Source: an uncultured virus (IMG/VR IMGVR_UViG_2882649382_000014)
Lineage: Duplodnaviria; Heunggongvirae; Uroviricota; Caudoviricetes
Length of the DNA: 64,000 nucleotides
IMG/VR virus record: IMGVR_UViG_2882649382_000014
Direction: 5' to 3' (one strand)
Position numbers and translations under genes: made by a program. How positions within the stretch are numbered: position 1 is the first letter of the stretch; each line of letters starts with the position of its first letter. Of this stretch, positions 13,723 through 63,340 are shown one piece after another. The notes below the pieces were generated by a model. It saw only the letters and a program-made list of their open reading frames with translations, was not told the DNA's origin and did no database searches.

Positions 13723-13826
13723 AGTATTACCTTCTTTCATTTTTTCCTTATATTACTACGGATGGTATACAATGTCAATTGTTTTATAGAAGGGGCAGTA
13801 GGGCAGCAGTAGCTGCCCTGTAATTC

Positions 13827-19439: not shown

Positions 19440-19510
19440 CATACTATTATTTATAGAAGTTGTGGAGTACTATAGAAGGCGGAGACTATTAAGATGAATT
19501 AGGGTATTAG

Positions 19511-20446: not shown

Positions 20447-20957
20447 GCTATCAAGAAACAGGGGAGCAGTATCACTCTTTTGGTTTCTACCCAGTCACGG
20501 GCAAGTTTTCCTTCTTGGTTTGGACTGTCTTTTACAAGCCATTTCTGACTCAAAACCGTTTACAAAGTCTCTGGACACTTCCATATCTGGGTTACCAGAC
20601 TTAGGGTTTCCGCTGCTGATTGGTGGTTTAGCCTGAATCCAAAGAGGCGCGCCACTTAGGTTTCCCATATGGCCTGCCGTATATTTTCTTGCCATTGCTG
20701 GCATCCTTTCGGAGTGCATGTCACGCCCATCGTTTCCAATCACGTTGTAGCTATACGGCACTATATATTCACTATAATAAAGCTTCCCAGCACTGGGGGA
20801 TAGCAGCCCCAATTACGGTTTATTTTATAGAACACTGTGAGTTGACTAAGTTCACACATTCCTGCCTTTGAAACCCGGTCTGCCGGGTAACTTAGGTATG
20901 AAGGGCATATTCAAAACAAATAACAGTTTATGAAATCCGTACACTCATACGGCGTTT

Positions 20958-22457
20958 ACCAGTGTTCTTGAAGCTTGTATATAAACCAGCTTCTAATCCA
21001 AGTGTCCCTAATGGGGATAGGGCAGGGACAAGCTCTGAGGCATGCTGGATGATGTTGTCAATCAAAACAGAGCCTGTCTTGAGTGCATCGGAATGTATTA
21101 TGCTGTTGACAAACTCTGTCCAGCTATTGGACAGCCTATTGAGCGTCCCGGTTAAATTCTGGGCGGACTGCCCTGCCGTTTCTATTGCAGAGCTCTTTCC
21201 TCTGGAATATTCTGCAAGCATGTTTTCATACTCCTGCCAGCCAGCCAGGAGCGCCGCCAGCTGTTCCGGGTGGTTCTGCCCAATGTTTTCTGTAATCTCA
21301 TTTTTTAATGGAGTCTTTTCTTCCAGCGCATTATATGCAATGGCCAAATCCTTTAAGATTTCGACGGGGGTTCGGAGATTTTCTGCGCTGCCGGCTGTTT
21401 CTGCCATGGCAGCATTGGCTTTTTGCAGCGTGTTTGCTATTTTATCAGAGGAAATGTCCTGCAGGGCAGAGATAATGGACTGGATGCCTTCGCCAATGGC
21501 TTCCCCGTCTTGCCTTGTATTTTCTGCGATTGTCCCCGCCAAGGCGGACAGTTCGTTGATTTTAATGCCTGCATTGGAGGCTGTAGAACCAGCTTTTTCC
21601 ATGACGGAAGCCATTGTCTTCAGGTTTACATGGTATTTGCCGGCAAGTGCGATCTGTCCGTCAAGGACGTCAGACAGCTTTTTGGCATCCTCTTTATATT
21701 TGTAGGCAGCGTTTGCGGCCAGCAGGTAGTTTTGCGCTGTTTCCGGACTTAGGCGGCCTGCCGTCTGGGCTTTTAAGGACAATTCTCCGAGGGAGTTTCC
21801 CTTTTGCCCGTAAATGCCTTGATTATTAAATCCATGGATGGCTGACAGGTAATCGGAAGAAAGCATGCCGTATTTTGATGCAGCGCCATAAGAAGCGCTG
21901 CCTAAGCTTTTTGTTTCACTTTCCGTAAAATGGTTTGCTTCTGAAATCTTTGCAAGGGTTGAATTGTTTTTTTGGATTGTCTTTAAGCTTTTCTGGAAGC
22001 TTCCGGCTGTCATCCTAACCATTTGAAAGGCAGAACTTAACCTGTCAAAAAAGTTTTCCAGGCTGTCCAATTTTAAATTGAGATTCAGGGGCACAGGGGC
22101 GTCCTGGATAGCTTTTTTGGCATCTGCAATTAATTTCTGGATTTTCAGCTTTGTTTTCCCGCTGTTAAACCCTGTTTCAATTTCTTTGAAAGAAAGGCTG
22201 TTGAAAGCCTTATCTATCTCAGTTTTTAACTCCCTTTTGTCAATTTTTGCCTTGAGCTTTATCTGCGTAAGCTGGCTTTCAAGCTGTCTGGCGTACTGTT
22301 TTAGCTGCTGCCGGCTTTCACCCCTGGCAAGTATGGCGGTCAGGCGGATGGTATGGACTGCTTTTTCCAGTTCTTTGATGCTGGAATTAATTTGCTTTTT
22401 GCTGGATTGTTTGTTTAACAGCCCGGTTAATTTTAGAATAGGTTCGTTATTTTCCAA
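20958..22457 (-). CDS. Tape measure protein, exon 1 (500 aa; the unspliced ORF stops at 20928)
   Basis: TP901-like TMP core (ELSALAGTIAENTRQDGEAIGEGIQSI; LRTPVEILKDLA); GGAGG RBS, TTG start. Confidence 0.85.
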
Positions 22458-23138
22458 TGATTTTACCTCCTTGGCTTTATATTTATATATATAAAGAGAG
22501 ATTACTGAAATAATCTCTCAGAGTTCCGAATTTTTAAAATATCTTCATCAAATGTGTTGCGGCATTCATTGTATAAGATAGTACTTCCCATGTTTTCCGC
22601 CTGCCTTCATAAAAGCAAATGGATGGCAGTCAACAGTTCTGCTGCAGAATAGTGGGATTGCTGGTTTAACGTTTTTTTGCAGAAGTATAACAGACAGGCG
22701 TTCCCTTTATGGCATTTTGTGTTAGTTGGGAAGATAGGAAAGATAGCTGGGAGTTCCCGATTTTAGCGCATGTGTCAAATTTTTGAAGAGTTTTATGTAA
22801 CGGGGGCTGAGAAATTTGTTTATGGAGAAGGGGTTCCTGCACCTTTTGCCTTAAAGCCGAACCAATCAACTGTATTGCTTACGGAATCTCCAACACTGTA
22901 AAGTCTGTGACGGTTGGATAAAATGTCAAGAAGATTGGAACTAAGGCTTTTTATGGTTGTAAAAAAATAAAAAATAATTAATAACTCAACTTTCCCATAG
23001 GGATTTCAACCTGAAATCCTTATAAATCTTAATATATTTAAGACAAAAAATGTCCTGTTGACATAGAAAAAAGCATCTGCCTCTGGTATCATAAAGTTAA
23101 CCCATAAACTCAAAAAACCGAGAGGAGATGCTAACTTT

Positions 23139-23890
23139 ATGATATTACAAAACAGTACAAATGAAAATACTTTACCTGAAATAAATATACAATTTATCAA
23201 AGCCATCCGGGAATTGAAAATCAGCGCCCTGCTCAAACAGTCTAACATATGCAAAGCCAGCTGTTCCAGGAATGGGGATGGCGGGAAGAAGCGTACCGCG
23301 TTTGAAATCTTCCAGTTCCTCCTCATGCTGGTGTTCGAAGGTACAGACCTGTTCCGGTTTCCTGGTTCAAAAAAGCAGGAAACCGCGTGTGCGAAAAGTA
23401 CATATTACCGTTTCCTGTCCAACTGCCATTACAGCTGGAGACGGTTTGTGCTGTTGCTTTCTGGAAAGGCCGCCGCATATTTCAGCACGCTTACACACCC
23501 GGAAAGGGTTAAATGTTTTGTTCTGGATGATTCTGTCATTCCACGCGGAAAAAGTAAAAAGGCTGGGCTGCTTTCTTTCGTCCATGGTCATGTCATCCAT
23601 AAAACCGTCAAGGGCTTCAGCCTCCTGCTGTCCGGCTGGATGGACGGTTGCAGTTTCTTGCCTGTTTCATTCAACATGCTGGCGTCCGCCAACGGGGAGA
23701 AGCGTATAAACCATGCAAACGAATCTATTGACAGGCGGACCAATGGCGCAAAAGCGCGGGAAGATGCCATAATGAAGAAGCCGGGGGCTGCAGCTGCTCT
23801 GATCCACAGTGCGCTTGAAGCGGGCATCGAAGCATCCTGTGTACTGATGGATACGTGGTTCACCAGCGAACCTTTCATATCCAGAGCCTT
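23139..23890 (+). pseudogene. Truncated IS4/IS701-like DDE transposase
   Basis: FVLDDSVI and VLMDTWF DDE motifs; the C-terminal half is replaced by integrase sequence. Confidence 0.75.
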
Positions 23891-24790
23891 TATTATGAAG
23901 AAACGGCTGTTTCGGCTTCTATTGCAAGGCTGGTAAAAACGGTGATGAATACGTCCATGCAGTATGCTGTGAATAAAAAAATCATTTCCATAAACCCAAC
24001 GATTGATGTGGCTCTGCCAAAGCAGGTAGAGAATAAAGCCTATCACACCCGGAACATTGATATACAAAAGACGTTGAATATGGAGCAGGTTTTAACGCTC
24101 ATTGAAGCGAGCAGGGAAACGCCAATCCATATGCAGGTATTATTTGCAGTGCTGTTAGGATTGAGGCGGTGTGAAATCAATGGGGTAAAATATTCGGATA
24201 TAGATTATATCAACCGGACATTGAAAGTGCAGCGGCAGTTAGGCAAGAAGCCAAACACGACTGCCGGGGACTTCCCGGCTAAGACGTTTACAAAACAGGA
24301 AATTGGGTTGAAAACGCCGTCCAGCTGCCGAACCATCCCCATACCGGATTATGTATTTGAAGCCATTCTGGAAGAAAGAAAAGTGTATGAGAAGAACCGC
24401 AGAAGGCGGTCAGGAACATTTCAGGATTTGGATTATATCTGCTGTTCCACCTATGGGCGTCCGAGAAGCAAGGATTTTCACTGGAGGCATTATAAAAAGC
24501 TGCTGGAGGACAATGGACTGCCCGATATAAGATTGCATGATTTGAGAAGTACCTTCTGCACTATCTTATTAAGGAACAATTTCAATCCTAAAGCGGTATC
24601 ACAGCTAATGGGACATGCGGAAGAAATCATTACCATAGATGTTTACGGAGATACCGCCGAAATCATTGAGGACTGCTTAGACGATCTCCAGCCGTTTATT
24701 GATGAAGTAATCCCGAAGGAAGAAAGTGAAGGCGGTACAGATTTTTCAGAAGACAATTATATAGAACAAATCAGTGAATTTCTTGCATGA
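23891..24790 (+). pseudogene. Tyrosine recombinase/integrase, N-terminally truncated
   Basis: GLRRCEI, HDLR, LMGH and DVY catalytic motifs; no native start, abuts the transposase fragment. Confidence 0.8.
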
Positions 24791-24821
24791 AAATTAGATA
24801 CTGGCATAATCAAATCGCATG

Positions 24822-24866
24822 AAAAAAGCACAGAACAAAAGTTCGGTTTTGGTCTGTGCTTTTTTT
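24822..24866 (+). terminator. Bidirectional intrinsic terminator
   Basis: AAAAAAGCACAGA...TCTGTGCTTTTTT. Confidence 0.75.
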
Positions 24867-25011
24867 GACTTATGTGTTATAATGAAAAACCAAATGACTG
24901 GATAATACTATCTGTACTGGCTGGTGTTATTCAGTGTTGTTTCGTTTTAAAAATATGGTTTTGTGACCTGCATTCGTGTAATTGCTATTTTAATGCTTAT
25001 TCGCCAGCTTT

Positions 25012-25260
25012 GCAAGCCCACAGGCGACCAGCCGCAGGCCATTGCCGAACTGGTCAAAGGCTTCAAGGAGGGCAATCAATTCCAGACTTTACTGGGGGTT
25101 ACGGGTTCCGGCAAGACATTTACGATGGCGAATGTCATTCAGGAATTGCAGAAGCCGACGCTGGTCATCGCCCACAACAAGACGCTTGCGGCGCAGCTTT
25201 ACGGAGAATTCAAGGAGATGTTCCCGGAGAATGCGGTGGAGTATTTTGTGTCCTATTACG
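25012..25260 (+). pseudogene. uvrB: Fragment of the 5' part of excinuclease ABC subunit B
   Basis: [10 protein letters not shown]...[12 protein letters not shown]...[29 protein letters not shown], then a stop; GC-richer than its flanks. Confidence 0.9.
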
Positions 25261-25459
25261 AAACCTGAAATTTGAATCTACATATAGTGTCTTCCTGTGC
25301 TGCTTTGTCCATATTTTGTGGAATATGTGGTATGGGTGGACTGGGTAACACATTATAGAAGGGGTGCAACAGGTGACGCTCATTCGTCCAGATGATGTTC
25401 GTAAAAGTAATGTGTGATACTGTTTTAAGTGTAGCGCATGGAGGCAAAGTTTTAGAATT

Positions 25460-25561
25460 AAATGCGAAAAGAGTTAAATAAACTCTATTTCGCATTTTTC
25501 TTTTATATCGGACAAACCTAGAAAAAATGCGGTAGAGCGTAAAAACTCTACCGCATTTTTT
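25460..25561. promoter_or_regulatory. Two related inverted repeats at the prophage left end
   Basis: AAATGCGAAAAGAGTT...AACTCTATTTCGCATTT and AAAAAATGCGGTAGAG...CTCTACCGCATTTTTT. Confidence 0.55.
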
Positions 25562-25594
25562 ATTTTACACATTTCCACGAGAGGAGGTAAGAAA

Positions 25595-25783
25595 GTGAGA
25601 AAACAGTACAAAAAATTGACCTATAGCGATAGGAAGAAAATTGAAATCATGTTAAAAGATGGAGCGACGCCAAAAGAACTAGCAAAAGAAACAGAAGTGC
25701 ATATTACAACGATTTACAGAGAATTAGAGAGAGGCGGCAGACCATACAAGGCAGACGAGGCACAAAAAACATTGTTTTGCTAG
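25595..25783 (+). CDS. Stand-alone IS30-type helix-turn-helix protein
   Basis: YKKLTYSDRKKIE...HITTIYRELERG; GGAGG RBS. Confidence 0.8.
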   Translation: MRKQYKKLTYSDRKKIEIMLKDGATPKELAKETEVHITTIYRELERGGRPYKADEAQKTLFC

Positions 25784-26542: not shown

Positions 26543-26724
26543 CCGATAGCCCCGCAATGGCTACCGGTTAGATACAAAGTGCAAAACACATTTAACTTTA
26601 ATAAAATTATACCATTTTTGCGCTTTGTAGTCAAGGGAGAAAAGCGGCTAAAAGTGCCGTTTCGGGCTTGTTCAAACTATTAACTTTAGGATCCCTACAA
26701 AGCGAAAAAGGGGGCGTAATTTTA

Positions 26725-27474
26725 TTGGCATATTTTAAGACAACAGTAAAAGCAGGAGCAACGATTGAGGTAACAAAAAGTTTCACAAAGAGAGTAGGGG
26801 TAAAAAATAAAAGGGATAAGGAGAAACCCGCTACAGAGGAAATGGAAAAGGTAAACGAGAAAAACGCAGAAAGAACATTGAGGCTAAAAATCAATGCTAA
26901 TTTTGGAGTAGATGATCTCTTTACCACATTGACATACAGAAAAGACGAGCGACCGACACCAGAGCAGGCAAAGAAGAATGTTAAAAAACTCATAGACAGC
27001 TTGCGGAAAGAGTTTAAGAAGATCGGGGAGGAATTAAAGTACATCAACGTAACAGAGTACAAAAACAAGGCGATACACCACCACTTAATCATTAACCATA
27101 TTGAGGGGCAGGACGTAGCAAGAATGGTTAGGCGACTATGGAAGTTTGGCAGACCGGATTTTAAGTTTCTGGACGACACCGGGCAATATAAAGATCTTGC
27201 GGCATATCTGATAAAAGAAACGTCAAAGACTTACAAGGAAAATGACGGAGGACACAAACAAAGATATAGTTGCAGCCGTAATTTGATTATACCAACGCCA
27301 AAGACAGAGATTGTAAAAAGGGCTACTAAATGGCTACCAGATCCAAAGCCAATAAAAGGCTACTACATAGATCAAGACACAGTATATAACGGCGTGGATC
27401 CATTCACAGGTAGAGAGTACCAACGCTACACAATGGTTAAGTTAGATTACGGAGGAGGCGGCAAGCATGGTTAG
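26725..27474 (+). CDS. Rolling-circle-type (HUH) replication initiator-like protein
   Basis: FTTLTY, IHHHLII and LAAYLIKE resemble RCR motifs 1-3; start uncertain (ORF opens at 26668). Confidence 0.7.
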   Translation: MAYFKTTVKAGATIEVTKSFTKRVGVKNKRDKEKPATEEMEKVNEKNAERTLRLKINANFGVDDLFTTLTYRKDERPTPEQAKKNVKKLIDSLRKEFKKIGEELKYINVTEYKNKAIHHHLIINHIEGQDVARMVRRLWKFGRPDFKFLDDTGQYKDLAAYLIKETSKTYKENDGGHKQRYSCSRNLIIPTPKTEIVKRATKWLPDPKPIKGYYIDQDTVYNGVDPFTGREYQRYTMVKLDYGGGGKHG

Positions 27475-27530: not shown

Positions 27531-27950
27531 GTGGAATATTTGAAAGTGGATATTTATATACACGCAAAACACAAAGGAAATCCGAGAGGCGCAGGCGAGG
27601 CAACAGCAATATTGGAATTTATCAGCCGGAAGAATGAGGCACACATAAGGAAAGCGACGGCAGCAGTTGAGAATGACACAAAAAACGCATTAACCCTAAA
27701 AGTGATTGTTACGGCTTTGAAAATGCTTATCAAGCCTTGCGAGGTAGTGTTACATACGGATAACGAGTATATAAAATCATGCGTTGCGCTTGGGTGGTTG
27801 GAAACATGGCGGCAGCAGGATTGGAGGAAAGCAAACGGAAAGCAACCGGCAAATATGGAATTGTGGAAAGGTTTTTATATTTCCATGCAGATACACAAAA
27901 TTACATTCATGCCATACGAGGATAGGCAAGAATTTAACAACGAAAATTAG
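27531..27950 (+). CDS. RNase HI-like protein, probably degenerate
   Basis: KGNP, PCEVVLHTDNEY and WRKANGKQPANMELW; the first catalytic Asp and Glu are not evident. Confidence 0.7.
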   Translation: MEYLKVDIYIHAKHKGNPRGAGEATAILEFISRKNEAHIRKATAAVENDTKNALTLKVIVTALKMLIKPCEVVLHTDNEYIKSCVALGWLETWRQQDWRKANGKQPANMELWKGFYISMQIHKITFMPYEDRQEFNNEN

Positions 27951-27961
27951 GAGGTAGAGAA

Positions 27962-28603
27962 ATGGAGATTACAACAAAAGTAATGCAGCAGACAACATGG
28001 CAGCAGATTTTAGAGGACGTAAAAGCAGGCGAGGCGGTAAAGTACGCCGGGACAGAAACAGAAATCACATTAAAGGACGGCACAACAGCAGTTTTGGCAG
28101 TGGCAGCAGTAAACCATTACAAAGACAATGAGTTAGTGTTTGTGTTCAGAGATTATTTGAGCGACAAGAAACCAATGAATGAGGACGGAGGCAACGCCGG
28201 AGGTTGGAAAAAATCAGATCTTAGAAAATGGCTTAATAAAGAGTTTATTAAACTGCTGCCAGATGATTTACAAGAAGTGATCCACAAGAAAAAGACAGTG
28301 CAGGTAATTAACGGAGAGTGTTATAAATGCAAAGATTATCTGTTTTTACCGTCAGAAATGGAAATGTTTGGAGAGTGCAAATATTCAGAGGAGCAGGAGG
28401 GAGAAAAGCAGTTCCCTTATTACGCAGACAAGCATAACCGCAGCCGCACGATTGGTAAAAGTGGTTGTTGGGAATTTGGGTGGCTTTCGTCGCCGTCCGC
28501 GTCGTACACTACCAGCTTTTGCGGTGTCAACGGCGACGGCAGCGCCAGCTACACCGACGCGCGCGGCAGCTTTGGCGTAGCCCCGGCTTTCGTAATCCGT
28601 TAA
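27962..28603 (+). CDS. Remote DGR target protein (C-type-lectin-fold, DUF6273-like)
   Basis: GGWKKSDLRKWLN, LFLPSEMEMFG, WLSSP..GVAPAF; 3' end matches the TR. Confidence 0.9.
   Translation: MEITTKVMQQTTWQQILEDVKAGEAVKYAGTETEITLKDGTTAVLAVAAVNHYKDNELVFVFRDYLSDKKPMNEDGGNAGGWKKSDLRKWLNKEFIKLLPDDLQEVIHKKKTVQVINGECYKCKDYLFLPSEMEMFGECKYSEEQEGEKQFPYYADKHNRSRTIGKSGCWEFGWLSSPSASYTTSFCGVNGDGSASYTDARGSFGVAPAFVIR
28479..28593 (+). repeat. DGR variable region VR2
   Basis: 115 nt colinear with TR 59753-59867; 16 mismatches, all at TR adenines. Confidence 0.95.
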
Positions 28604-28614
28604 TCTTGCAATCC

Positions 28615-28633
28615 GCGCCGCCGTGTGCGGCGC
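28615..28633 (+). promoter_or_regulatory. GC-rich hairpin downstream of VR2 (candidate retrohoming cruciform)
   Basis: GCGCCGC-CGTGT-GCGGCGC. Confidence 0.7.
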
Positions 28634-28657
28634 ATACATAGAAAGGACTAGAACAAT

Positions 28658-29041
28658 ATGGAGAATTTGAACACGCAGGGAAGATATAAAAGAGGACAAA
28701 TATATTTTGTCAAATCAACGCATAAAGAGGTTGGCACGGAACAATGGGCAGATAGACCGGCGGTAATTGTCAGCAATGACGAAAATAACAAATGCAGTAC
28801 GGCAGTAGAAGTTTGCTATATGACAACAAGACCAAAAACAGATTTACCGACGCATTTTATTACAAATCAAGCGTTGCGACCGTCTACCGTGATTTGCGAA
28901 CAGGTAACAACGGTTTATAACGAGCGTATAGGGGAATGGATCGGAGAGTTAAGCCCGGAGGAAATGCAGCGGCTTGACAAATGTTTAGAAATTTCTTTAG
29001 GGCTTGAAAAGACAAAGCCAAAAGAACCCCCCGGAAATTAA
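28658..29041 (+). CDS. PemK/MazF-like protein; a C-terminal coiled coil (to 29132) is out of frame at a C6 tract
   Basis: KRGQIYFV, GTEQWADRPAVIVSND, TVICEQVTTV. Confidence 0.8.
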   Translation: MENLNTQGRYKRGQIYFVKSTHKEVGTEQWADRPAVIVSNDENNKCSTAVEVCYMTTRPKTDLPTHFITNQALRPSTVICEQVTTVYNERIGEWIGELSPEEMQRLDKCLEISLGLEKTKPKEPPGN

Positions 29042-29143
29042 AAGCCGGGCAGAATTTGAAAAGGTGCAGCGGGAAAGAGATTTATACAAAGATCTTTATG
29101 AACGCCTCAACAAAGAATTACTTAACGGATAGGAGGCGGCAGA

Positions 29144-29401
29144 ATGGATAAAGCAACATGGAGGGTAAAAGAAAGTAAAAATACCTATCGCGCTACTTAT
29201 TCGGGAGATTTGCAGGAGGCTTTAGACAAAGCAAAGAAAGACTTAGAGAGATACCAAAACAATAAGGATATAGCACACTGGTATTGGATAAGAGCAAAGG
29301 CAGAGGCAGCAATAAAAGCAAATGAAAGAGCGATAAATAGAGCGAACATATTTATTCAGCTTGCAGAAAAGGAATTAAAGGCAGGTGGAAAAAGTGATTA
29401 A
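29144..29401 (+). CDS. Hypothetical phage protein
   Basis: 85 aa, AGGAGG RBS. Confidence 0.6.
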   Translation: MDKATWRVKESKNTYRATYSGDLQEALDKAKKDLERYQNNKDIAHWYWIRAKAEAAIKANERAINRANIFIQLAEKELKAGGKSD

Positions 29402-30380
29402 AATTTTAGAGTTATTCGGCGGGATCGGATCGCCGCGCTGTGCTTTGCGGAATATTGGAATACCAGTAAAAGCTATCGACTATGTAGAAATAGATGAAAA
29501 TGCAGTTAGATCATACAATGCTATGTTTCAAAATGAATTGAAATACAAAACACAGTCAGTAGTACAGTGGAATCTAAAGCCGGACATATTGATACATGGT
29601 AGCCCATGCCAAGATATGAGCATAGCCGGACATCAAGGGAAAGCAACAGCGGATAAAGGAAGAATAAACCGAGGGAAAGGCGCAGACGAGGGAACCGGAA
29701 CGCGATCAAGTCTGATGTGGGAAACGATAAACATAATTAAACAAATGGGCGAATGGCGTCCAAGATATGTTATTTGGGAAAATGTAAAGAATGTTACATC
29801 AAAACACATGATACACAATTTCAATCGCTATTTATCGGAAATGCAAAAATTGGGTTACAAGAACAGTTTCCAGACATTAGACGCTAGAGAATTTGGTTTA
29901 CCGCAGGCTAGGGAAAGAGTATTCACAATATCAGTATTGAACGGAGAACCGTTTAACTTTGATGATTTAATAAAAACGCCTATGCGAAACCTAAAAGAGT
30001 TTTTGGAGGATAATAACGACGTTCCAGAAGTCTATAACGTGACACAACCAAGCGTATTAAGTGCCATTGGCAAAAAAGGAATAAGGAGAGCGACAGTTAT
30101 AACGGATTTTGCATATACAATCACAACACGGCAAGACAGGACACCGGCGCAAGTCATTGATAGAGGAAACGGAAAGTACAGATATTTGACAGAGCGCGAA
30201 TGTTGGAGGTTGCAAGGCTACACCGACGCAGATTTCGAGGCAGCGGCAGCAGTACAAGAAAAGTCCGGGCGTTACACAATGGCACTTTACAAACAAGCAG
30301 GAAATAGCATAGCAGTACCGATTTTTGAAAGCATTTTCAAAAAGATTATTCTAGGACAGACGGAAGAAAGGAGTTTGTAG
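29385..30380 (+). CDS. DNA (cytosine-5) methyltransferase
   Basis: LELFGGIG, GSPCQD, WENVKN, QARERVF, YKQAGNS. Confidence 0.95.
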   Translation: MEKVIKILELFGGIGSPRCALRNIGIPVKAIDYVEIDENAVRSYNAMFQNELKYKTQSVVQWNLKPDILIHGSPCQDMSIAGHQGKATADKGRINRGKGADEGTGTRSSLMWETINIIKQMGEWRPRYVIWENVKNVTSKHMIHNFNRYLSEMQKLGYKNSFQTLDAREFGLPQARERVFTISVLNGEPFNFDDLIKTPMRNLKEFLEDNNDVPEVYNVTQPSVLSAIGKKGIRRATVITDFAYTITTRQDRTPAQVIDRGNGKYRYLTERECWRLQGYTDADFEAAAAVQEKSGRYTMALYKQAGNSIAVPIFESIFKKIILGQTEERSL

Positions 30381-30383
30381 TAT

Positions 30384-30879
30384 ATGGATAAGGTTTTAAT
30401 GAGTACCGGTAAAGACGATTGGGGAACACCACAAGCGATATACGACACACTCAATAAGGAGTTTGGTTTTACATTGGACGCTTGCGCAGATGAAAGCAAC
30501 TATAAACATGAGAATTATTACACGGCAGCAGTTGACGGCTTAAAAATGAATTGGGGGGGGGCAAATCGTGTTTTGCAATCCACCATATAGCAAGAAAACA
30601 AAGAAAAATCCGGGGCAGGAGGCTTGGATCAAGAAATGTTTTGAGGAAAGCAGCGAGCATGGCGCAACTGTTGTTATGTTAATACCGTCCAGAACAGACA
30701 CAAAGGCTTTTCATAATTTCATTTTAGGAAAAGCAAAAGAAATACGGTTTGTAGAGGGGCGGTTAAAGTTTGAGATTGCCCGGCAGCAGTGCAAAGAGGC
30801 GGCACCATTCCCAAGCATGGTAGTAATTTATGATGGTACGCCGGGAGGCAGCGGGACAACGAAAGTAAAAAGATATTAA
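30384..30879 (+). pseudogene. Phage DNA N6-adenine methyltransferase split at a G9 tract
   Basis: DDWGTPQ and FTLDACA in frame 1; VFCNPPY, LIPSRTDT and GRLKF in frame 2; G9 at 30553-30561, G8 would fuse the frames. Confidence 0.85.
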
Positions 30880-31252: not shown

Positions 31253-31554
31253 GTTTAACAGCATTAGTAGCAGAATTGGAGAGGGAGGTAAGGGAGTGGC
31301 GACAGCAGGAACAAAATACATTACAGATGATAGCTGCTATTACGTCGCCAGAGTTTGCAGAGCAGGCGGCAGACGTTTTAGACAGCAAGAAACATTCATA
31401 CAGCTTTGAGGCGTATTTGGTTTTGCTTGGACGGCTACAAGAGTTAATAAGTGCAGGTATGCCAAACTGTTTAGCACTGGACGCGGTACAGACGTGCGAA
31501 ACAGCAGAAACGATTATAAACGCATGGAGATTAGCAAACGCAGGCGACAAGTAA
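31249..31554 (+). CDS. Hypothetical phage protein
   Basis: 101 aa, coupled to the upstream stop. Confidence 0.55.
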   Translation: MSLTALVAELEREVREWRQQEQNTLQMIAAITSPEFAEQAADVLDSKKHSYSFEAYLVLLGRLQELISAGMPNCLALDAVQTCETAETIINAWRLANAGDK

Positions 31555-31598
31555 CGGCGGGAAACAAATTATTTTACGAACAGAAAGGAGCAAACGCA

Positions 31599-32378
31599 AT
31601 GAGAGTTATTTCAATTATCAGCCTCAAAGGAGGCGTGGCGAAAACGACAACAAGCGTAAACATGGCTTACATATTATGCAAGCAGGGATTTAGAGTTTTG
31701 CTTATTGACAATGACAAGCAGGGGAACGCCTCAAAGACATTCGGGCTATACAATCCAGAGGACGAAAACACCGTAGCCCGGATTATGCTTGAAAGAGGCT
31801 TAGACGTCCGGGAGATCATAAACAAAACGCCATACAGTGACAGCGAGGCAGGCACATTGGATATTATAACAGCAAATATGGAACTGTTAGAGGCTAACAT
31901 GAGGACGATTGTAGACACTGGACGGCAGCAGCAGACGAGATTTAAGAAAGCATTAACAGCAGTGAGCGATCAATATGATTTCTGCATAATTGACAATGCA
32001 CCAGATATAAACATGAGCATTATTAACGCCCTTGTGGTGTCAGATGATCTAATCATTCCAATTATGATAGATCAGTACAGCTTTGACGGCTTGGAAATTC
32101 TCATAGAACAGATAGAACAGACAAAAGAGGATTTTAACCCGGCATTAACTTTTAGAGGCTGCCTTGTAACACAGTACCGAAAAGCCGACGTGCAGGAGCA
32201 GGGAACGGAAGTATTAGACAGTGGCTACCCGATTTTTGAAAGCAGGATCAGACGGACGGAAAACAAAGTAAATGAAAGTACGTTTGCAGGAAAGCCGGTT
32301 GTTGAGTATTCGGTAAGATGTGGAGCGTCGCAGGATTATAAAAAATTTGTGCGTGAATATTTGGAGGCGATCAAATGA
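31599..32378 (+). CDS. parA: ParA/Soj-family ATPase
   Basis: KGGVAKTT deviant Walker A, DNDKQGN, IIDNAP. Confidence 0.9.
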   Translation: MRVISIISLKGGVAKTTTSVNMAYILCKQGFRVLLIDNDKQGNASKTFGLYNPEDENTVARIMLERGLDVREIINKTPYSDSEAGTLDIITANMELLEANMRTIVDTGRQQQTRFKKALTAVSDQYDFCIIDNAPDINMSIINALVVSDDLIIPIMIDQYSFDGLEILIEQIEQTKEDFNPALTFRGCLVTQYRKADVQEQGTEVLDSGYPIFESRIRRTENKVNESTFAGKPVVEYSVRCGASQDYKKFVREYLEAIK

Positions 32379-32590
32379 GATCAAAGAAAATCAAGGTAAA
32401 AGCCTATTGCCCATACGAAATTGGCGACAAGGTACAGTTTGAAAAGGGCGGCAATGTTAAGACAATGGAAATTACGGACGTAATCACAGAAACAAGCGCG
32501 AAAAACGGTACAAGCAAGTTTCGGCTAGAGTTAGACGGTTGGTATATGTTAGATACAAATTTGCATGAAATCAAAATACAGAAACCGTAA
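32375..32590 (+). CDS. Hypothetical phage protein
   Basis: 71 aa, ATGA overlap. Confidence 0.6.
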   Translation: MRSKKIKVKAYCPYEIGDKVQFEKGGNVKTMEITDVITETSAKNGTSKFRLELDGWYMLDTNLHEIKIQKP

Positions 32591-32639
32591 AAAATAGGCG
32601 AAAAGTGCCCAACAAGGGCACAAGAAAGGAAGTGACAAA

Positions 32640-33998
32640 ATGGCATTTAACATTAAAGATTTTCTGAATGAGGAAAGCAAAAAAGAGGTAATAGACGATT
32701 TCCCGATAAAGAAAATTTCCGTAAAAAAGCTGCACCCAAGCAAGCAGAATTTTTATAACATTGATCCGAAAGAGATTGAGGCATTAAAAGATACTATTGA
32801 GTTAGTGGGCGTCCAAGAAAATTTAGTTGTGAGGGAGATAAAAGAGGGCGAGTTTGCCGGGGAATATGAAATTATTGTAGGACACAAACGCCACCTTGCA
32901 GTATCGGAATTGGCAGCAGAGGGGAAAGTAACGGAGTTTGTACCATGCAAGATTGATTACAGCGGGAATAGTGCATTGCGCGAGTTGATATTGATATTTA
33001 CAAACTCTACGCAGCGGGAGCGGTCAGACTATGAGAAAATGCACGAGATCCAAAGAGTGCGGGAGTTGTTGGAGGATTACGCAAAGAATAATGATTTGCC
33101 GGGAAGAAAGAGGGACATTATAGCCGGGATCCTTAATACATCAAAAAGCACTATTTCAAGATTGGATAACATCAGACGGCATATTATACCGGAGTTTATG
33201 CAGGAATATAAAGCCGGGAAGATACCAACGGCAACCGCCAACGAAATTGCAGGCATAAGCGACGAGGGGCAGCAGGAATTGTGGCAGCAGTACAGAGAAA
33301 CCGGTAGCATTAAGAAAAAAGAGGCGGCAGCAGTAAAGCAGGAAGAAAAGCCGCAGCCGGAGGCAAAAGAAGAAACACAGACGCAACCGGAGAAAAGAGA
33401 AGAAAAACCGGAGCAGATAAAACAAGAGGAACCAAGACAAGAGGAGCCGGAAAACATACCGGAGCAGGAGCCACAGGAGGAAACGACCGTAACAGTAACA
33501 AGGACGCAGGACAACACAGACAGAAAGACGCTTATTATTGCCGGACGGATCAACCCAAACAAAGAATACAACGGCATGAATATAAAATATTTCATGGACG
33601 CGGTAACAAATAGTGATTTATTTGATACGGAGTTTTGGGAAAAGTGGCAAAACCCGGATATACACCAACCGAGCCTTTTAACAGAGTATGCCGGAGTGAT
33701 CGAAACATTCAGCAGCGGCACCGGGGAATTGTGCGAATGTAGTTTTAATGAGGGATTTACAGTAACTAGACAGGAGGCGCACCAGACAGCAAATATTACC
33801 TCAATGGAACTTGTAGAGTTGATCGACGCACTTATATACACAAAGGTAATAGAAATCAAAACAGAGAGAGTAGACGTTGCGTATTGGGGAAAAGAAACAG
33901 CAAGGGAGTTGGCGAGGTTATCAATGTGGCTTACAGAGCAGGAATTAGCAGTAATGCAGGATATAGCCTTAAAACTGAAAGAGAGGGCGGGAAAATGA
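32640..33998 (+). CDS. parB: ParB/Spo0J N-terminal domain protein with acidic linker
   Basis: LHPSKQNFY, GVQENLVV, YEIIVGHKRHLA. Confidence 0.85.
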   Translation: MAFNIKDFLNEESKKEVIDDFPIKKISVKKLHPSKQNFYNIDPKEIEALKDTIELVGVQENLVVREIKEGEFAGEYEIIVGHKRHLAVSELAAEGKVTEFVPCKIDYSGNSALRELILIFTNSTQRERSDYEKMHEIQRVRELLEDYAKNNDLPGRKRDIIAGILNTSKSTISRLDNIRRHIIPEFMQEYKAGKIPTATANEIAGISDEGQQELWQQYRETGSIKKKEAAAVKQEEKPQPEAKEETQTQPEKREEKPEQIKQEEPRQEEPENIPEQEPQEETTVTVTRTQDNTDRKTLIIAGRINPNKEYNGMNIKYFMDAVTNSDLFDTEFWEKWQNPDIHQPSLLTEYAGVIETFSSGTGELCECSFNEGFTVTRQEAHQTANITSMELVELIDALIYTKVIEIKTERVDVAYWGKETARELARLSMWLTEQELAVMQDIALKLKERAGK

Positions 33999-58134: not shown

Positions 58135-59073
58135 ATGGCAAAATTACCACTTGCGGATAATCCAGTATTTAATTTAGTCATGGAGGCTATGACAAAGGAC
58201 ACGCCGGGATCATACGAAGAATTTAACCCGCGATATATTCAACTTTTGGAAAATTTGTTATATCTGAAGAACAGTAAATTTGACGCGGAAAAGATCGTAG
58301 AAAGCCTAAATATTACAGAAAATGGCTACATACCAGACGGAGTTGTAATTGCCGAGGCAATACAAGATTTACGAGATCGAACCGGGGCGGGGTATGACGG
58401 AGTTAATTTGAATATGACTTTTGCGCAGCTTAAAGCAAAAGTGGCAGCAGGGGATTTTAGCGGGCTACATTTGTATGATTATATCGACTTTTCGACAACG
58501 AGCGGCGAGGCGGTACGCGCAGAGATTATGGGATTTAACACCATGCTTTATTTTGGCGATACGGCAATAATGAAACCTCATGTTTTAATGCAAACAAGGG
58601 ATTGTTTGGCTACAACTTATTCTTACAACGATAATCCAGACAATACCGGCGGCTTTAATGCGTCAAAATTAAAAACGAGTTTAGAAACTATCCTAACGAC
58701 ATTCCCGGCAGACTTAAAAAACGCAATATTGGAGTGTAGACGCTTGGAAAGTACAAAGGGTGGTTGGAGTTGGTACGGCAGAAAATTATTTTTGCCTACC
58801 GAGGTAGAAGTATTTGGAAATGTAGCGTGGAGTGAGGCGGGGCACGGTTCCGGCGGCAGCAAACAATGGGAGGGCTACCAGAGATCCTATAAACACGTTA
58901 TTAAAGGGCTTGGAAAAGGAAAAGCAGACAGCGGATCGCGTTACTACTGGTGGCTTTCGTCGCCGTCCGCGTCGCACGCTACCTACTTTTGCTATGTCAT
59001 CAACAGCGGCTACGCCAGCTACGACGACGCGCGCAGCGGCTATGGCGTAGCCCCGGCTTTCCTTATCGGTTAA
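58135..59073 (+). CDS. DGR target: tail/receptor-binding protein with C-type-lectin-fold C-terminus
   Basis: Last gene of the tail module; 3' end matches the TR. Confidence 0.9.
   Translation: MAKLPLADNPVFNLVMEAMTKDTPGSYEEFNPRYIQLLENLLYLKNSKFDAEKIVESLNITENGYIPDGVVIAEAIQDLRDRTGAGYDGVNLNMTFAQLKAKVAAGDFSGLHLYDYIDFSTTSGEAVRAEIMGFNTMLYFGDTAIMKPHVLMQTRDCLATTYSYNDNPDNTGGFNASKLKTSLETILTTFPADLKNAILECRRLESTKGGWSWYGRKLFLPTEVEVFGNVAWSEAGHGSGGSKQWEGYQRSYKHVIKGLGKGKADSGSRYYWWLSSPSASHATYFCYVINSGYASYDDARSGYGVAPAFLIG
58932..59061 (+). repeat. DGR variable region VR1
   Basis: 130 nt colinear with the TR; 15 mismatches, all at TR adenines. Confidence 0.97.
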
Positions 59074-59083
59074 TCTTTAGATC

Positions 59084-59102
59084 CCGCCCCTTTATGGGGC
59101 GG
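59084..59102 (+). promoter_or_regulatory. GC-rich hairpin downstream of VR1 (candidate retrohoming cruciform)
   Basis: CCGCCCC-TTTAT-GGGGCGG. Confidence 0.7.
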
Positions 59103-59120: not shown

Positions 59121-59714
59121 ATGGCAGTATTGAAGAATGAGCGGGGAATTTCCGAAATGGAGGCATATAACACAGCGGCAAAACTTAGGGCAGAATTAAC
59201 CAGAATTTTGTTGCGGAATTTTGGGATTAAGACGACCAAAGGGAAATATTTAGGAAGTTTTACCGAGGAGGAAATAAAGAAAATCACAGAGGAAAACCCG
59301 CGAATAGGTAAGTTTATACGCAGGGCGTACAAGTTGGAGGAGGAATTAGAAACACATGAAATTTTAAGAGAGTACCCGGCATGGGTTACGGAAATGTTAC
59401 GAGAAAAAGTAATTACAACATTAAACAATCTTGTAGACCATGTAGTAAGAGCAAACGGTTATCCGGTAAATTTTCACGAGTTGGAAATAAGGAGGGACTA
59501 CCAGAACGCAGCAATAAAAGACTGTGAAATATTACTACAAGATTTACAATACGCTATGCAAATCCTACCAATAGACGTAAACAAACTATTACCCTATGTG
59601 GATAAGGTAGAGTTTGAAATTGCAGTATTAAAAGGTTGGAGAAAAGCAAATGGGAAAATAGCAAAGAGGATTAGGAAACAGGAGGCGAGCAAACAAAAAG
59701 CAGAGGGAAAATAA
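59121..59714 (+). CDS. avd: DGR accessory variability determinant (Avd-like four-helix protein)
   Basis: Lies between VR and TR; RANG...RRDYQNAAI...LKGWRK. Confidence 0.85.
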   Translation: MAVLKNERGISEMEAYNTAAKLRAELTRILLRNFGIKTTKGKYLGSFTEEEIKKITEENPRIGKFIRRAYKLEEELETHEILREYPAWVTEMLREKVITTLNNLVDHVVRANGYPVNFHELEIRRDYQNAAIKDCEILLQDLQYAMQILPIDVNKLLPYVDKVEFEIAVLKGWRKANGKIAKRIRKQEASKQKAEGK

Positions 59715-59735: not shown

Positions 59736-59867
59736 CGGATCGCGTTACAACTGGTGGCTTTCGTCGCCGTCCGCGTCGAACACTACCAACTTTTGCAATG
59801 TCAACAACAACGGCAACGCCAACAACAACGACGCGCGCAACAGCAATGGCGTAGCCCCGGATTTCGT
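59736..59867 (+). ncRNA. DGR template repeat (TR)
   Basis: AAC-rich master copy of VR1 and VR2, between avd and the RT gene. Confidence 0.97.
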
Positions 59868-60074: not shown

Positions 60075-61361
60075 ATGAATAGCAAAGAAAGGCATGAGGC
60101 TAGATACCAAAGAAGAAAGGCGGCGCGGGAAGAAAAACGACGTGCGCGGCTAGGGAAATACGACAATTTCAACAATCTTTTAGACGCCAATAATTTAATT
60201 GGTGCCTTTGAGCGTTCACAAAAAGGCGTGTCGTGGAAATCAAGCGTACAACGGTATGAAATGAACCTATTACAGCAAACAAACGATAGCCGAAAGAAAC
60301 TAGCCGCAGGGGAGCCAGCGGCACAAGGGTTTATTGAGTTTGATTTGAGGGAACGCGGGAAAATGAGGCATATTAAAAGCGTCCACATAAAGGAGCGTTG
60401 CATACAAAGGGTACTATGCGATCATGCGTTAGTACCGGTATTATCTAACAGTCTGATATATGATAATGGCGCAAGTCTTGAAAACAAGGGCATACATTTT
60501 TCACTAAACAGACTGGATAAACATTTACACTGGTATTATAGGCACAACGATTTCAGTAACGAGGGCTATATTTTATTGATTGACTTTAGTAGTTATTTTG
60601 ATAACATACGCCACGAGCATTGCTACAACATAATTAACAAGAGTTTTGAGGATCAGCGTATTAAGAATTTAACAAAAGAACTGATAGAGCCATTCAGAGG
60701 AAAAGACGGATCCGCAAAATCTTTGGGAATAGGCAGCCAGATTTCGCAGATTTTGGCAATTAGTTATCCAAACACTATAGATCATTTCATTAAAGAAGAA
60801 TTAGGGATTAAATGCTATGGTAGATACATGGACGACAGCTATATTATTCACAGAGATAAAAAGTATTTAAGAAAATGCTTAGATATTTTGCGGGAAAAGT
60901 ACAAAGAGTTGGGAATTGTGGTAAACGAAAAGAAAACACAGATTGTAAAAATAAGCCGCGGCTTTACTTTTCTTAAAACGCGCCACTATCTGACAGAGAG
61001 CGGAAAAATAATAAAGAAACCGTGCAAGGCGTCAATAACCAGAGAGCGCAGAAAGCTAAAGAGGCTTAAAAAGAAAGAATTAGAGGGCTTAGTATTGTTC
61101 AAAGAGATACATACACAGTACAAGTCTTGGAGAGGGCACATAAGCCACACAAACGCATATCAGACAATACAAAATATGGATAAGCTATTTAATTCCTTAT
61201 TTGTATTCAATAAAGAAAATGGAGGTATAGAGCATGGAAACACTACGTTTCGCAGGTTCCAAGAGAACCTACCCGGCAGGGTTCGTAAAATTATGCGAGA
61301 ACAGAATATTGATTATATCCCCGGATTTGAAAGCGGATATAGTCAATACGGAAAAAATTGA
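60075..61361 (+). CDS. DGR reverse transcriptase
   Basis: ERCIQR, IDFSSYFDNI, LGIGSQISQ, YGRYMDD. Confidence 0.95.
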   Translation: MNSKERHEARYQRRKAAREEKRRARLGKYDNFNNLLDANNLIGAFERSQKGVSWKSSVQRYEMNLLQQTNDSRKKLAAGEPAAQGFIEFDLRERGKMRHIKSVHIKERCIQRVLCDHALVPVLSNSLIYDNGASLENKGIHFSLNRLDKHLHWYYRHNDFSNEGYILLIDFSSYFDNIRHEHCYNIINKSFEDQRIKNLTKELIEPFRGKDGSAKSLGIGSQISQILAISYPNTIDHFIKEELGIKCYGRYMDDSYIIHRDKKYLRKCLDILREKYKELGIVVNEKKTQIVKISRGFTFLKTRHYLTESGKIIKKPCKASITRERRKLKRLKKKELEGLVLFKEIHTQYKSWRGHISHTNAYQTIQNMDKLFNSLFVFNKENGGIEHGNTTFRRFQENLPGRVRKIMREQNIDYIPGFESGYSQYGKN

Positions 61362-62972: not shown

Positions 62973-62991
62973 TCAGAGGAGGTAAAGGAAA

Positions 62992-63258: not shown

Positions 63259-63293
63259 AGGAAATGAAATACAGAAACGAAATTGAAAGAGTA

Positions 63294-63322
63294 GCCGGGG
63301 CAGACGCCCCGGCACTTTTTTT
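63294..63322 (+). terminator. Late operon terminator
   Basis: GCCGGGGC...GCCCCGGC followed by ACTTTTTTT. Confidence 0.8.
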
Positions 63323-63340
63323 ATTGGGAAAATTTATAAA

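What the first reader, a model, noticed from the sequence alone, without database searches (positions are those of the whole stretch)
27962..28633. One DGR template diversifies a second, remote target in the early region
Seen: VR2 (28479-28593) matches the TR over 115 nt with 16 mismatches, all at TR adenines, and its pattern differs from VR1, so it was mutagenised independently. The 213-aa gene lies ~31 kb from the RT, between the RNase H-like and MazF-like genes, and lacks the N-terminal extension of the tail target. Established: phage DGRs typically diversify virion receptor-binding proteins, and multi-target DGRs are known. Inference: this target is a non-structural intracellular binder under hypervariation, for example an anti-defence or host-takeover factor.
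Basis: partly seen in the sequence, partly recalled or inferred. Interest (0 to 1): 0.85.

Follow-up and report, generated by a model that had tools for sequence, protein, structure and literature searches.

The report
Second, remote DGR target in prophage
A mouse-gut prophage uses one mutagenic retroelement to rewrite both its tail-fibre tip and a small free-standing lectin-like protein encoded among its replication genes; the site is real and active, but this layout is already published and what the small protein binds is still unknown.

Summary
VR2 (28479-28593) matches the template repeat (59753-59867) with 16 mismatches in 115 nt, and all 16 fall on the 30 template adenines (chance about 1e-11). 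It ends a 213-aa DUF6273 gene, is read in the same codon register as VR1, and is followed by the same target-recognition features as VR1. VR2 is hypervariable in nature: across 18 close relatives the 12 AAY template codons are exactly the variable columns, and the rest of the protein is nearly fixed.

The protein is a bare C-type-lectin-like domain with no signal peptide. It lacks the about 90-residue helical N-terminal extension of the tail target. It lies between RNase H and MazF-like genes in the replication and DNA-modification block.

I found the same layout in four other phage lineages. It is in print for Roseburia phage Shimadzu, Quimbyvirus, Faecalibacterium prophages and four human-gut prophages. 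Two of those papers already propose a role in phage-host conflict. This scan has also met it at least four times on other DNA.

An intracellular, non-virion role is plausible (about 0.45) but untested. A virion-bound role is not excluded. The "31 kb" separation is a prophage-map distance, roughly 8 kb on the circular genome.

Verdict: new member of a known kind.

The parts
27962..28603 (+). VR2 target gene: 213-aa stand-alone DUF6273 (C-type-lectin-like) protein with no signal peptide; an AGGAGG ribosome-binding site lies upstream
   Evidence: ORF. Pfam PF19789, residues 59-212, E 6e-21, 75.5 bits against a cut-off of 23.5. AF2 model pLDDT 80.7, pTM 0.84. Fold match to the IgAse N-terminal domain, Z 14.1, over model residues 14-213. 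Maximum Kyte-Doolittle (19) 0.91. RBS.
28479..28593 (+). VR2, variable repeat at the 3' end of the gene
   Evidence: 115 nt against the TR with 16 mismatches, all at TR adenines. P = 9.7e-12. The 12 AAY codons are the hypervariable columns in 18 relatives.
28594..28633 (+). Stretch behind VR2 that is shared with VR1 but not with the TR, ending in a GC hairpin (28615-28633): putative IMH and hairpin target-recognition element
   Evidence: Alignment of the three repeats. DNA fold: 7-bp GC stem, 5-nt loop, -11 kcal/mol, z -1.9. Position. Requirement known from BPP-1 (PMC3240598 abstract).
58135..59073 (+). VR1 target gene: 312-aa tail-tip protein with a helical N-terminal extension (about residues 1-88) followed by a DUF6273 domain; it directly follows a tail-collar-fibre N-terminal protein (57737-58120)
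   Evidence: Pfam DUF6273, residues 143-311. PHROG tail-collar fibre for 57737-58120. AF2 model.
58932..59063 (+). VR1
   Evidence: 132 nt against TR 59736-59867 with 16 mismatches, 15 at A.
59083..59102 (+). GC hairpin behind VR1
59121..59714 (+). Avd-like accessory gene
   Evidence: Weak PHROG match to 'Avd protein of DGR', E 2.7e-4. No Pfam match. The position between target and TR is the canonical one.
59736..59867 (+). Template repeat (TR). VR1 uses all 132 nt; VR2 matches from 59753 onward
60075..61361 (+). DGR reverse transcriptase (428 aa)
   Evidence: Pfam RVT_1, E 1.7e-16. phrog_1423 reverse transcriptase, E 2.1e-71. YMDD is present in the translation.
27531..27950 (+). RNase H-like gene, upstream neighbour, 11 nt before the VR2 gene
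   Evidence: Pfam RNase_H, E 1.6e-10.
28658..30380 (+). Variable cargo slot downstream of VR2: MazF-like gene (28658-29041), small ORFs, and a C5 cytosine methyltransferase (29385-30380). Relative L007 lacks both
   Evidence: Pfam. tblastn finds neither in L007. L007 carries other genes in that slot. A relative in run X17 skips 28636-30384.

Best explanation
SHOWN. The window holds a temperate myovirus-type prophage with one complete DGR: tail target with VR1, an Avd-like gene, the TR and the RT. The DGR's adenine-mutagenised cDNA homes into two sites. VR2 is a genuine target and is active in nature. It carries A-only mismatches and the same codon register as VR1. It has a VR-type 3' end that differs from the TR, and a GC hairpin behind it. 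Among close relatives the variation is confined to the A-bearing codons.

The VR2 protein is a bare DUF6273 / C-type-lectin-like domain whose variable residues come from 12 AAY codons. It has no N-terminal fibre-attachment extension and no signal peptide. The two targets are old paralogues (34% identity) whose C-termini are kept alike only by the shared TR.

INFERRED. The gene sits 11 nt behind RNase H in the replication, partition and DNA-modification block, upstream of the terminase. Homologous small targets hold the same kind of place in four other phage lineages. I therefore think it is most likely made early and acts inside the infected cell as a free hypervariable binder of a variable host or competitor molecule, as part of phage-host conflict. 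An intracellular site of action keeps each variant linked to the genome that encodes it, so selection can act on it.

The ligand, the timing and the location are not shown.
For: DGR anatomy and A-specificity:
- Anatomy.
- Chance of the A-only pattern: 9.7e-12.

Activity in nature:
- The 90%-identity cluster holds 171 distinct sequences on 81 contigs.
- I aligned 18 sequences: the window's own protein, 14 other members of that cluster (the 15 listed of 40 read) and 3 representatives of neighbouring clusters.
- The 12 of 12 AAY codons show 5-9 different residues.
- The 21 VR codons without A average 1.24 different residues.
- The 174 columns outside the VR average 1.37.
- Relative L007 differs in VR2 at 15 sites, 14 of them at TR-A.
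- In run X8 the contig starting at 28484 has 19 differences, against 0-1 in the other listed X8 contigs.

Target-recognition features: the segment shared by the two VRs, and the GC hairpins behind VR1, VR2 and the remote VRs of two other phages.

Single domain, no anchor.

No signal peptide. None in 114 of 114 relatives of 171-400 aa, among 148 of the 150 best representatives.

Early-block context.

Recurrence in other lineages:
- Fontainebleau: between DNA polymerase I and a helicase; 15 of 15 mismatches at TR-A.
- Shimadzu orf43: between a methyltransferase and Erf/SSB, with both VRs modified in 2% of virion reads (10.1101/575076, passages).
- Dulem virus 34: behind an adenine methyltransferase; 15 of 16 mismatches at TR-A.
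- A 261-aa IMG/VR lineage, 42 loci: between an integrase and a DNA polymerase/primase, with a hypervariable tail.

Variable cargo next door.
Against: No datum here shows expression time, cellular location or ligand.
- Every phage DGR target with a shown function is a virion protein.
- Virion proteins also lack signal peptides, so that feature does not separate the two readings.
- Elsewhere DUF6273 is extracellular. It occurs as 12 repeats with Listeria-Bacteroides repeats in a 3973-aa protein.
- The closest solved fold is the N-terminal domain of a secreted, sortase-anchored IgA peptidase.
- Sharing one TR and one codon register with the tail tip suggests a similar class of ligand.
- The five lineages share homologous genes, so they are not five independent events.
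- The 261-aa lineage is flanked by DUF6353 genes of unknown function, not by known counter-defence genes.
Confidence: 0.45

Rival explanations
1. Virion-bound accessory receptor-binding or decoration protein. The small lectin-like protein is assembled onto the particle (tail, baseplate or head) through a surface of its globular domain. It widens or tunes adsorption alongside the VR1 tail tip, even though it is encoded outside the late operon.
For: - The domain family is used at tail tips and in Hoc-like 'tentaclins' (PMC10743442, sections 2.1-2.5 read; 10.1101/2024.10.15.618418, passages).
- It has the same TR and codon register as VR1.
- DUF6273 is extracellular in cell proteins.
- Published authors favour receptor binding for small DUF6273 targets.
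Against: - It has no counterpart of the helical N-terminal extension of the VR1 target or of Mtd's attachment domains.
- It holds a conserved place among replication and modification genes in five lineages, while the structural genes form one tight block.
- Only 1 longer relative (470 aa, 32% identity) turned up among fused forms. That search is weak evidence.
Confidence: 0.3
2. A function expressed in the lysogen: a prophage-encoded binder made in the lysogenic state that benefits the host or excludes other phages.
For: - It lies beside accessory cargo of the moron type: a MazF-like gene and methyltransferases.
- Logan contigs of the RNA-library runs X15 and X17 lie across the region. That call notes that such contigs cannot show transcription or its level.
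Against: - The gene sits in the rightward early operon just behind the Rep and RNase H genes. No promoter-like site stands above the shuffled background (14 found, 14.1 expected).
- It has no signal peptide, so a role at the cell surface is unlikely.
Confidence: 0.1
3. A soluble lectin released at lysis that acts outside the cell, for instance by masking receptors on debris or binding mucus or host glycans.
For: It has a lectin-like fold, and the domain is used extracellularly elsewhere.
Against: A released public good is not linked to the genome that encodes the variant. Selection on DGR-made variants would then be weak. This is an inference. There is no direct evidence either way.
Confidence: 0.08
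4. A passenger target. VR2 is hit by the DGR only because it carries the recognition sequences, and the protein has no function of its own that benefits from variation.
For: In BPP-1, transplanting the IMH and hairpin is enough to target a foreign gene (PMC3240598 abstract).
Against: - The frame is intact in all 18 aligned variants.
- The scaffold is nearly invariant outside the VR.
- The small leaderless form is a large old family: 87 of 148 best representatives are 171-270 aa.
- It is kept in five lineages.
Confidence: 0.05

Closest known systems
Roseburia phage Shimadzu orf43 / VR2 (bioRxiv 10.1101/575076, passages read)
   Same: - A homologous small protein: tblastn 32% identity over residues 13-213, E 1e-15.
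- A myovirus of a gut Clostridia host.
- VR1 lies in a tail gene next to the RT, and VR2 lies in a protein of unknown function among methyltransferase and recombination genes.
- Both VRs were shown to be modified.
   Different: It is a different phage with a different host source (human-gut isolate against mouse-gut DNA). The neighbours differ: Erf/SSB there, Rep, RNase H and MazF-like here. Its activity was shown by reads; here it is shown only by comparing relatives.
Quimbyvirus second DGR target in a defence-related island (PMC8008677, passages read)
   Same: One DGR serves one structural target and one distal target judged non-structural. Methyltransferases lie nearby. A role in phage-host conflict is proposed.
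   Different: It is a Bacteroidota phage. The target is on the opposite strand and the RT is split over three frames. I did not test whether its target is homologous to this protein.
[quoted passage not shown]
   Same: [quoted passage not shown]
   Different: The text gives no protein family. I could not see Extended Data Fig. 3c or the supplementary tables, so I cannot say whether the targets are DUF6273.
Small DUF6273 targets of Faecalibacterium prophages Lelie and CP11 (PMC11792537), the FP_Toutatis second VR gene (10.1101/2024.10.15.618418) and nd4/nd12 tgt2 (PMC10743442)
   Same: A small single-domain DUF6273 protein with the VR at its C-terminus, diversified by the same TR as a larger target. 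Function is stated as unclear or guessed to be receptor binding.
   Different: The larger partner there is often a tentaclin (Hoc-like); here it is a tail-tip protein. The positions of the small genes in those genomes were not visible to me, because the figures are not held.
Bordetella phage BPP-1 Mtd, the prototype DGR target
   Same: C-type-lectin fold with the VR at the C-terminus, AAY-rich TR, and IMH plus hairpin behind the VR.
   Different: Mtd has an N-terminal beta-prism and a beta-sandwich for trimer formation and fibre attachment (as described in PMC10743442). The 213-aa protein has neither. The fold match is only Z 4.0.
N-terminal domain of the Thomasclavelia ramosa IgA peptidase (PDB 9qa6; PMC12237041, passages read)
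   Same: It is the closest solved fold: Z 14.1, rmsd 2.5 A, 170 residues aligned, model residues 14-213 against chain residues 32-283. It is described as an enlarged C-type-lectin-like domain.
   Different: It has 11% identity. It is part of a secreted multidomain peptidase, is not a DGR target, is dispensable for catalysis, and its function is unknown.

Membership tests
Diversity-generating retroelement (DGR) target site | A reverse transcriptase of the DGR type in the same genome | tested here: met
   RVT_1, E 1.7e-16. phrog_1423, E 2.1e-71. YMDD is in the translation. That a GxxxSQ-type motif marks DGR RTs is recalled, not tested here.
Diversity-generating retroelement (DGR) target site | A TR/VR pair that differs (almost) only at TR adenines | tested here: met
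   16 of 16 mismatches at A over 115 nt, P 9.7e-12.
Diversity-generating retroelement (DGR) target site | VR at the 3' end of an open reading frame, with AAY codons in frame | tested here: met
   VR2 ends 10 nt before the stop codon. There are 12 AAY codons in frame, in the same register as VR1.
Diversity-generating retroelement (DGR) target site | An IMH-like 3' end that differs from the TR, and a hairpin or cruciform behind the VR | tested here: met
   Both VRs share a C where the TR has A near the 3' end. They share about 20 nt beyond the TR match, then a GC hairpin. Each hairpin alone is only z about -1.9. The recurrence at four VRs is the evidence. Function was not assayed.
Diversity-generating retroelement (DGR) target site | An accessory gene (Avd) | tested here: inconclusive
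   Only a weak PHROG match, E 2.7e-4, and no Pfam match. The position is right.
Diversity-generating retroelement (DGR) target site | Evidence of ongoing diversification | tested here: met
   Variation among 18 relatives is confined to the A-bearing codons. L007 and the run X8 contig agree. Within-sample read variation could not be tested because only contigs were served.
Pfam DUF6273 (PF19789) | Score above the curated cut-off | tested here: met
   75.5 bits against a cut-off of 23.5, residues 59-212.
C-type-lectin-fold DGR variable proteins (Mtd, TvpA) | C-type-lectin-like fold with the VR on its surface | tested here: inconclusive
   TvpA 2y3c Z 5.8, Mtd 1yu0 Z 4.0 and many CTLDs at Z 4-5, all below the level the tool calls safe. 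The strong match (Z 14.1) is to a domain that its authors call C-type-lectin-like.
Mtd-like tail-fibre tip proteins | N-terminal domains for trimer formation and fibre attachment | tested here: not met
   The model is one globular domain from residue 14 to 213. The alignment to the tail target starts at its residue 123.
Tentaclins (PMC10743442) | [quoted passage not shown] | tested here: not met
   The VR is at the C-terminus, the only Pfam family is DUF6273, and no Ig domain is present.
Remote small DGR targets in early or counter-defence neighbourhoods (Shimadzu orf43 type) | Homology to orf43, a place outside the structural block, and the same TR as a tail target | tested here: met
Anti-defence protein | Shown inhibition of, or binding to, a host defence system | not testable with these tools
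   Only neighbourhood evidence exists. I ran no PADLOC or anti-defence library search on this protein.

The most novel reading that the evidence does not exclude
Small leaderless DUF6273 proteins in phage early regions would be a phage-side, antibody-like repertoire. The DGR would keep a population-wide library of intracellular binders against variable host immunity or competitor-phage proteins, mirroring the DGR-diversified sensors proposed for bacterial defence. They would form one old, widespread family: hundreds of 50%-identity clusters of about 200-260 aa with a shared N-terminus.
Probability: 0.3. Interest if true: 0.8.

Novelty: new member of a known kind. Interest (0 to 1): 0.3.

Why it matters
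If the small target acts inside the cell, DGRs in phages do more than switch receptors. They would give phages a programmable, hypervariable intracellular binder, and such proteins could be mined as evolvable scaffolds.

This window adds a clean example: an intact DGR, an intact target, a large natural allele series, and a cargo slot that varies next door. It also adds three general observations:
- The small leaderless form is a large family.
- It lies 8-15 kb downstream of the TR on the circular map in the four genomes where I could measure it.
- Its closest solved fold is the IgA-peptidase N-terminal domain.

The layout and the arms-race idea themselves are already published.

Tried and rejected
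- Expression from public RNA runs. All four runs laid were served as contigs, which cannot show level, strand or ends. Contigs of the RNA-library runs lie across both early and late genes, so nothing can be said.
- Within-sample VR2 variation. It was not testable for the same reason.
- att sites. There is no direct repeat of 12 nt or more between 22400-25700 and 62900-64000. The right end probably lies at or beyond the window's end. The provirus ends used for the circular distance come from a contig start and an IMG/VR call, not from att sites.
- Foldseek against PDB. No match at E <= 0.001. The best was 9qa6 at 8e-3. The wide VIA search then gave Z 14.1 for the same entry.
- Fused forms. One longer relative only (470 aa, 32% identity). 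That search is weak.
- VR2 protein as antitoxin of the MazF-like neighbour. Rejected: relative L007 keeps the target but lacks MazF.
- Recent duplicate of the tail target. Rejected: 34% identity outside the VR.
- Sec-secreted protein or lipoprotein. Rejected: no hydrophobic N-terminus here or in 114 of 114 relatives of 171-400 aa.
- A third target in the DUF6273 gene at 1329-2195. No TR-like match.
- Virion proteomics in the papers opened. None in PMC5883640 or 10.1101/575076: zero hits for 'mass spectrometry' and 'proteom'.
- TR of the 261-aa lineage. It lies outside the fetched flanks. An RT homologue was seen in 8 of 42 loci.
- Complex prediction was not used. I claim no specific partner.
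- Notes of this scan at this place: none.

Full report
**What is there**

A BLAST of 28400-28660 against the window finds two other matches, at 58949-59101 and at 59753-59867. A 23-nt core occurs three times against none expected.

The copy at 59736-59867 lies between an Avd-like gene (59121-59714; weak PHROG match) and a reverse transcriptase (60075-61361; RVT_1 and phrog_1423). It is rich in AAC and is the template repeat.

The copy at 58932-59063 ends a 312-aa DUF6273 protein that follows a tail-collar-fibre N-terminal protein. This is VR1.

The copy at 28479-28593 ends a 213-aa DUF6273 protein. This is VR2.

**The mismatch pattern**
- TR against VR2: 115 nt and 16 mismatches, all at the 30 TR adenines. 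The hypergeometric chance is 9.7e-12.
- TR against VR1: 132 nt and 16 mismatches, 15 at adenines.
- VR1 against VR2: 19 differences, 18 at TR adenines.

Both VRs are read in the same codon register, so the 12 AAY codons that VR2 shares with the TR are in frame. Near the 3' end both VRs carry a C where the TR has an A. Both share about 20 nt beyond the TR match, then a GC hairpin: 28615-28633 behind VR2 and 59083-59102 behind VR1. In phage BPP-1 such a sequence and hairpin behind the VR are needed for efficient homing (PMC3240598, abstract). Each hairpin alone is only about 1.9 sd below shuffles. The remote VRs of two other phages have one at the same place.

**Is VR2 active?**

The window's protein belongs to a 90%-identity cluster of 171 distinct sequences on 81 contigs. 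I aligned 18 sequences: the window's own protein, 14 other members of that cluster (the 15 listed of 40 read) and three representatives of neighbouring clusters. One search gives the counts:
- The 12 AAY codons show 5 to 9 different residues.
- The 21 VR codons without an A average 1.24.
- The 174 columns outside the VR average 1.37, and only one has four residues.

In IMG/VR relative L007 (88% identical protein) VR2 differs from the window at 15 sites, 14 at TR adenines, against 31 differences in the other 527 nt. In an independent mouse-gut run (X8) a contig begins at 28484 and carries 19 differences in 1318 nt. The other listed contigs of that run carry 0 or 1. Read-level variation within one sample could not be tested, because only contigs were served.

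**The protein**

The AF2 model (55-row alignment, pLDDT 80.7, pTM 0.84) is one globular domain. The VR-coded part has the lowest confidence.

[quoted passage not shown] C-type-lectin folds follow, among them TvpA (Z 5.8) and Mtd (Z 4.0). The authors of that structure call the domain an enlarged C-type-lectin-like domain that is dispensable for catalysis (PMC12237041, passages).

There is no hydrophobic N-terminus.

The tail target aligns to the small protein only from its residue 123 (34% identity). Its first 88 or so residues model as low-confidence helices before the same globular domain. It is an old paralogue, not a recent copy.

**Context**

From about 25.5 kb to the end of the window all genes run rightward:
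- an HTH protein, a rolling-circle Rep and RNase H;
- the VR2 gene;
- a MazF-like gene, a C5 methyltransferase, a split Dam and an HNH protein;
- ParA, a ParB-like protein, a deoxyribosyltransferase-like protein and an exonuclease;
- the terminase, portal, capsid, sheath, tube, tape measure and baseplate genes;
- the tail fibre with VR1, then Avd, the TR and the RT;
- holin and endolysin.

The VR2 gene starts 11 nt after RNase H and has a good ribosome-binding site. No promoter-like site stands above background.

The slot just downstream varies. L007 lacks the MazF-like gene and the C5 methyltransferase and has other genes there. A relative in run X17 skips 28636-30384.

The 31,160-nt separation is a prophage-map distance. 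With the provisional ends (24878 and 63823) the TR lies about 7.6 kb upstream of VR2 on the circle. Those ends are not defined by att sites.

**Recurrence**

I found the same layout in four other lineages.
- Acutalibacter phage Fontainebleau. A 189-aa homologue lies between DNA polymerase I and a helicase. Its VR matches the TR next to the RT with 15 of 15 mismatches at adenines, 13.8 kb away on the circle.
- Roseburia phage Shimadzu. orf43 lies between a methyltransferase and Erf/SSB.
- Dulem virus 34. A 221-aa homologue lies behind an adenine methyltransferase. 15 of 16 mismatches are at adenines, 14.7 kb from the TR.
- A 261-aa lineage in 42 IMG/VR loci (phrog_21980). It lies between an integrase and a DNA polymerase/primase, with an RT about 9 kb upstream in 8 of the 42 loci. 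Its C-terminus is hypervariable. Its TR lay outside the fetched flanks.

A full HMMER scan gives 3688 50%-identity clusters at E <= 1e-3 and 835 at E <= 1e-10. I analysed 148 of the 150 best; the other two were already held. Of these, 87 are 171-270 aa, and none of the 114 that are 171-400 aa has a hydrophobic N-terminus. Twelve are longer than 1000 aa. One of these has 12 DUF6273 repeats with Listeria-Bacteroides repeats, a cell-surface architecture.

**What is in print**
- Shimadzu. VR2 in orf43 is of unknown function, both VRs are modified in 2% of virion reads, and both are mutated in five ultravirulent isolates (10.1101/575076, passages).
- Quimbyvirus. [quoted passage not shown]
- Four gut prophage species. 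A distal second VR lies near counter-defence genes such as a DNA methyltransferase (PMC12629997, passages).
- Faecalibacterium prophages Lelie and CP11. They have large and small DUF6273 targets, with function unclear (PMC11792537, passages).
- FP_Toutatis. A second VR gene lies 17,480 nt from the TR (10.1101/2024.10.15.618418, passages).
- Phages nd4 and nd12. tgt2 is a single DUF6273 domain without Mtd's attachment domains (PMC10743442, sections 2.1-2.5).

The two papers I searched for proteomics terms, PMC5883640 and 10.1101/575076, report no virion proteomics. Figures, and the supplements of PMC12629997, were not seen. This scan's own notes list four earlier cases on other genomes with the same verdict.

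**How it most likely works**

Shown: the RT copies the TR transcript with errors at adenines, and the cDNA replaces VR1 or VR2 independently. Each VR brings its own recognition end and hairpin.

Inferred: the small protein is made with the early genes and acts free in the cytoplasm as a hypervariable binder in phage-host conflict. I put this at about 0.45. The reasons are the conserved early-block position, the missing anchor, and the link between variant and genome that an intracellular role preserves.

The main rival is a virion-bound accessory binder, at about 0.3. The extracellular use of the domain elsewhere and the shared TR register favour it.

Smaller rivals are a function expressed in the lysogen, a lectin released at lysis, and a passenger target.

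**Verdict**

This is a new member of a known kind, and interest is modest.

Noticed in passing
window 1-23300, minus strand: The left third of the window is not plain host DNA. It is the tail block of a second phage-like element. It holds a tape-measure-like protein (20928-22457), an 1871-aa protein (13827-19442), a DUF6558 tail protein (11925-12806), and a 1441-aa protein with the endosialidase-chaperone domain (7598-11923).
   Followed up: partly
window 1329-2195, minus strand: A third DUF6273 protein (288 aa) sits at the end of that second tail block. It has no match to the TR and no repeat in 1-2400. It is therefore not a target of this DGR, and its own template, if any, lies outside the window.
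   Followed up: partly
window 13447-13740, minus strand: A RelB-antitoxin-like gene lies inside the second element's tail block.
   Followed up: no
window 24963-25268: A 101-aa N-terminal fragment of a UvrB-like helicase lies between a tyrosine integrase (23855-24790) and the prophage's first genes. Contigs of other organisms carry on past about 25255-25258 with unlike sequence, and depth is about tenfold higher there. This may mark an integration site in uvrB.
   Followed up: partly
window 30384-30879: The Dam methyltransferase is split into two overlapping frames (30384-30590 and 30568-30879). Relative L007 has the same split. A relative in run X17 lacks one base at 30553. This could be a frameshift, a slippery site or a decayed gene.
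   Followed up: partly
window 28658-29041: A MazF/PemK-like toxin gene has no recognisable antitoxin gene in front of it. It is part of a cargo slot that differs between close relatives.
   Followed up: partly
window 26668-27474 and 31494-33998: A rolling-circle Rep, a ParA and a ParB-like protein occur in a prophage that also has an integrase nearby. These are features like those of a phage-plasmid.
   Followed up: no
L053 (G001:C207:39000-41497), just beyond the window's end: An IS30-type transposase (HTH_38 plus rve) follows the prophage's last genes. In the nearest held genome the contig with this phage starts exactly at window position 24878.
   Followed up: partly
L019 8274-13717: In the 261-aa lineage the small DGR target is flanked by three paralogous DUF6353 genes of unknown function. 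A cell-wall hydrolase gene follows, all between the integrase and the DNA polymerase.
   Followed up: no
run X17, joint 28269 to 28555: A more distant relative carries, in place of part of VR2, letters that look almost like the unmutated TR. This suggests a recent homing event with few adenine changes.
   Followed up: no
PDB 9qa6, chain residues 32-283: The IgA-peptidase N-terminal domain appears to be the first solved structure of the DUF6273 fold (Z 14.1). The word DUF6273 does not occur in the structure paper.
   Followed up: partly
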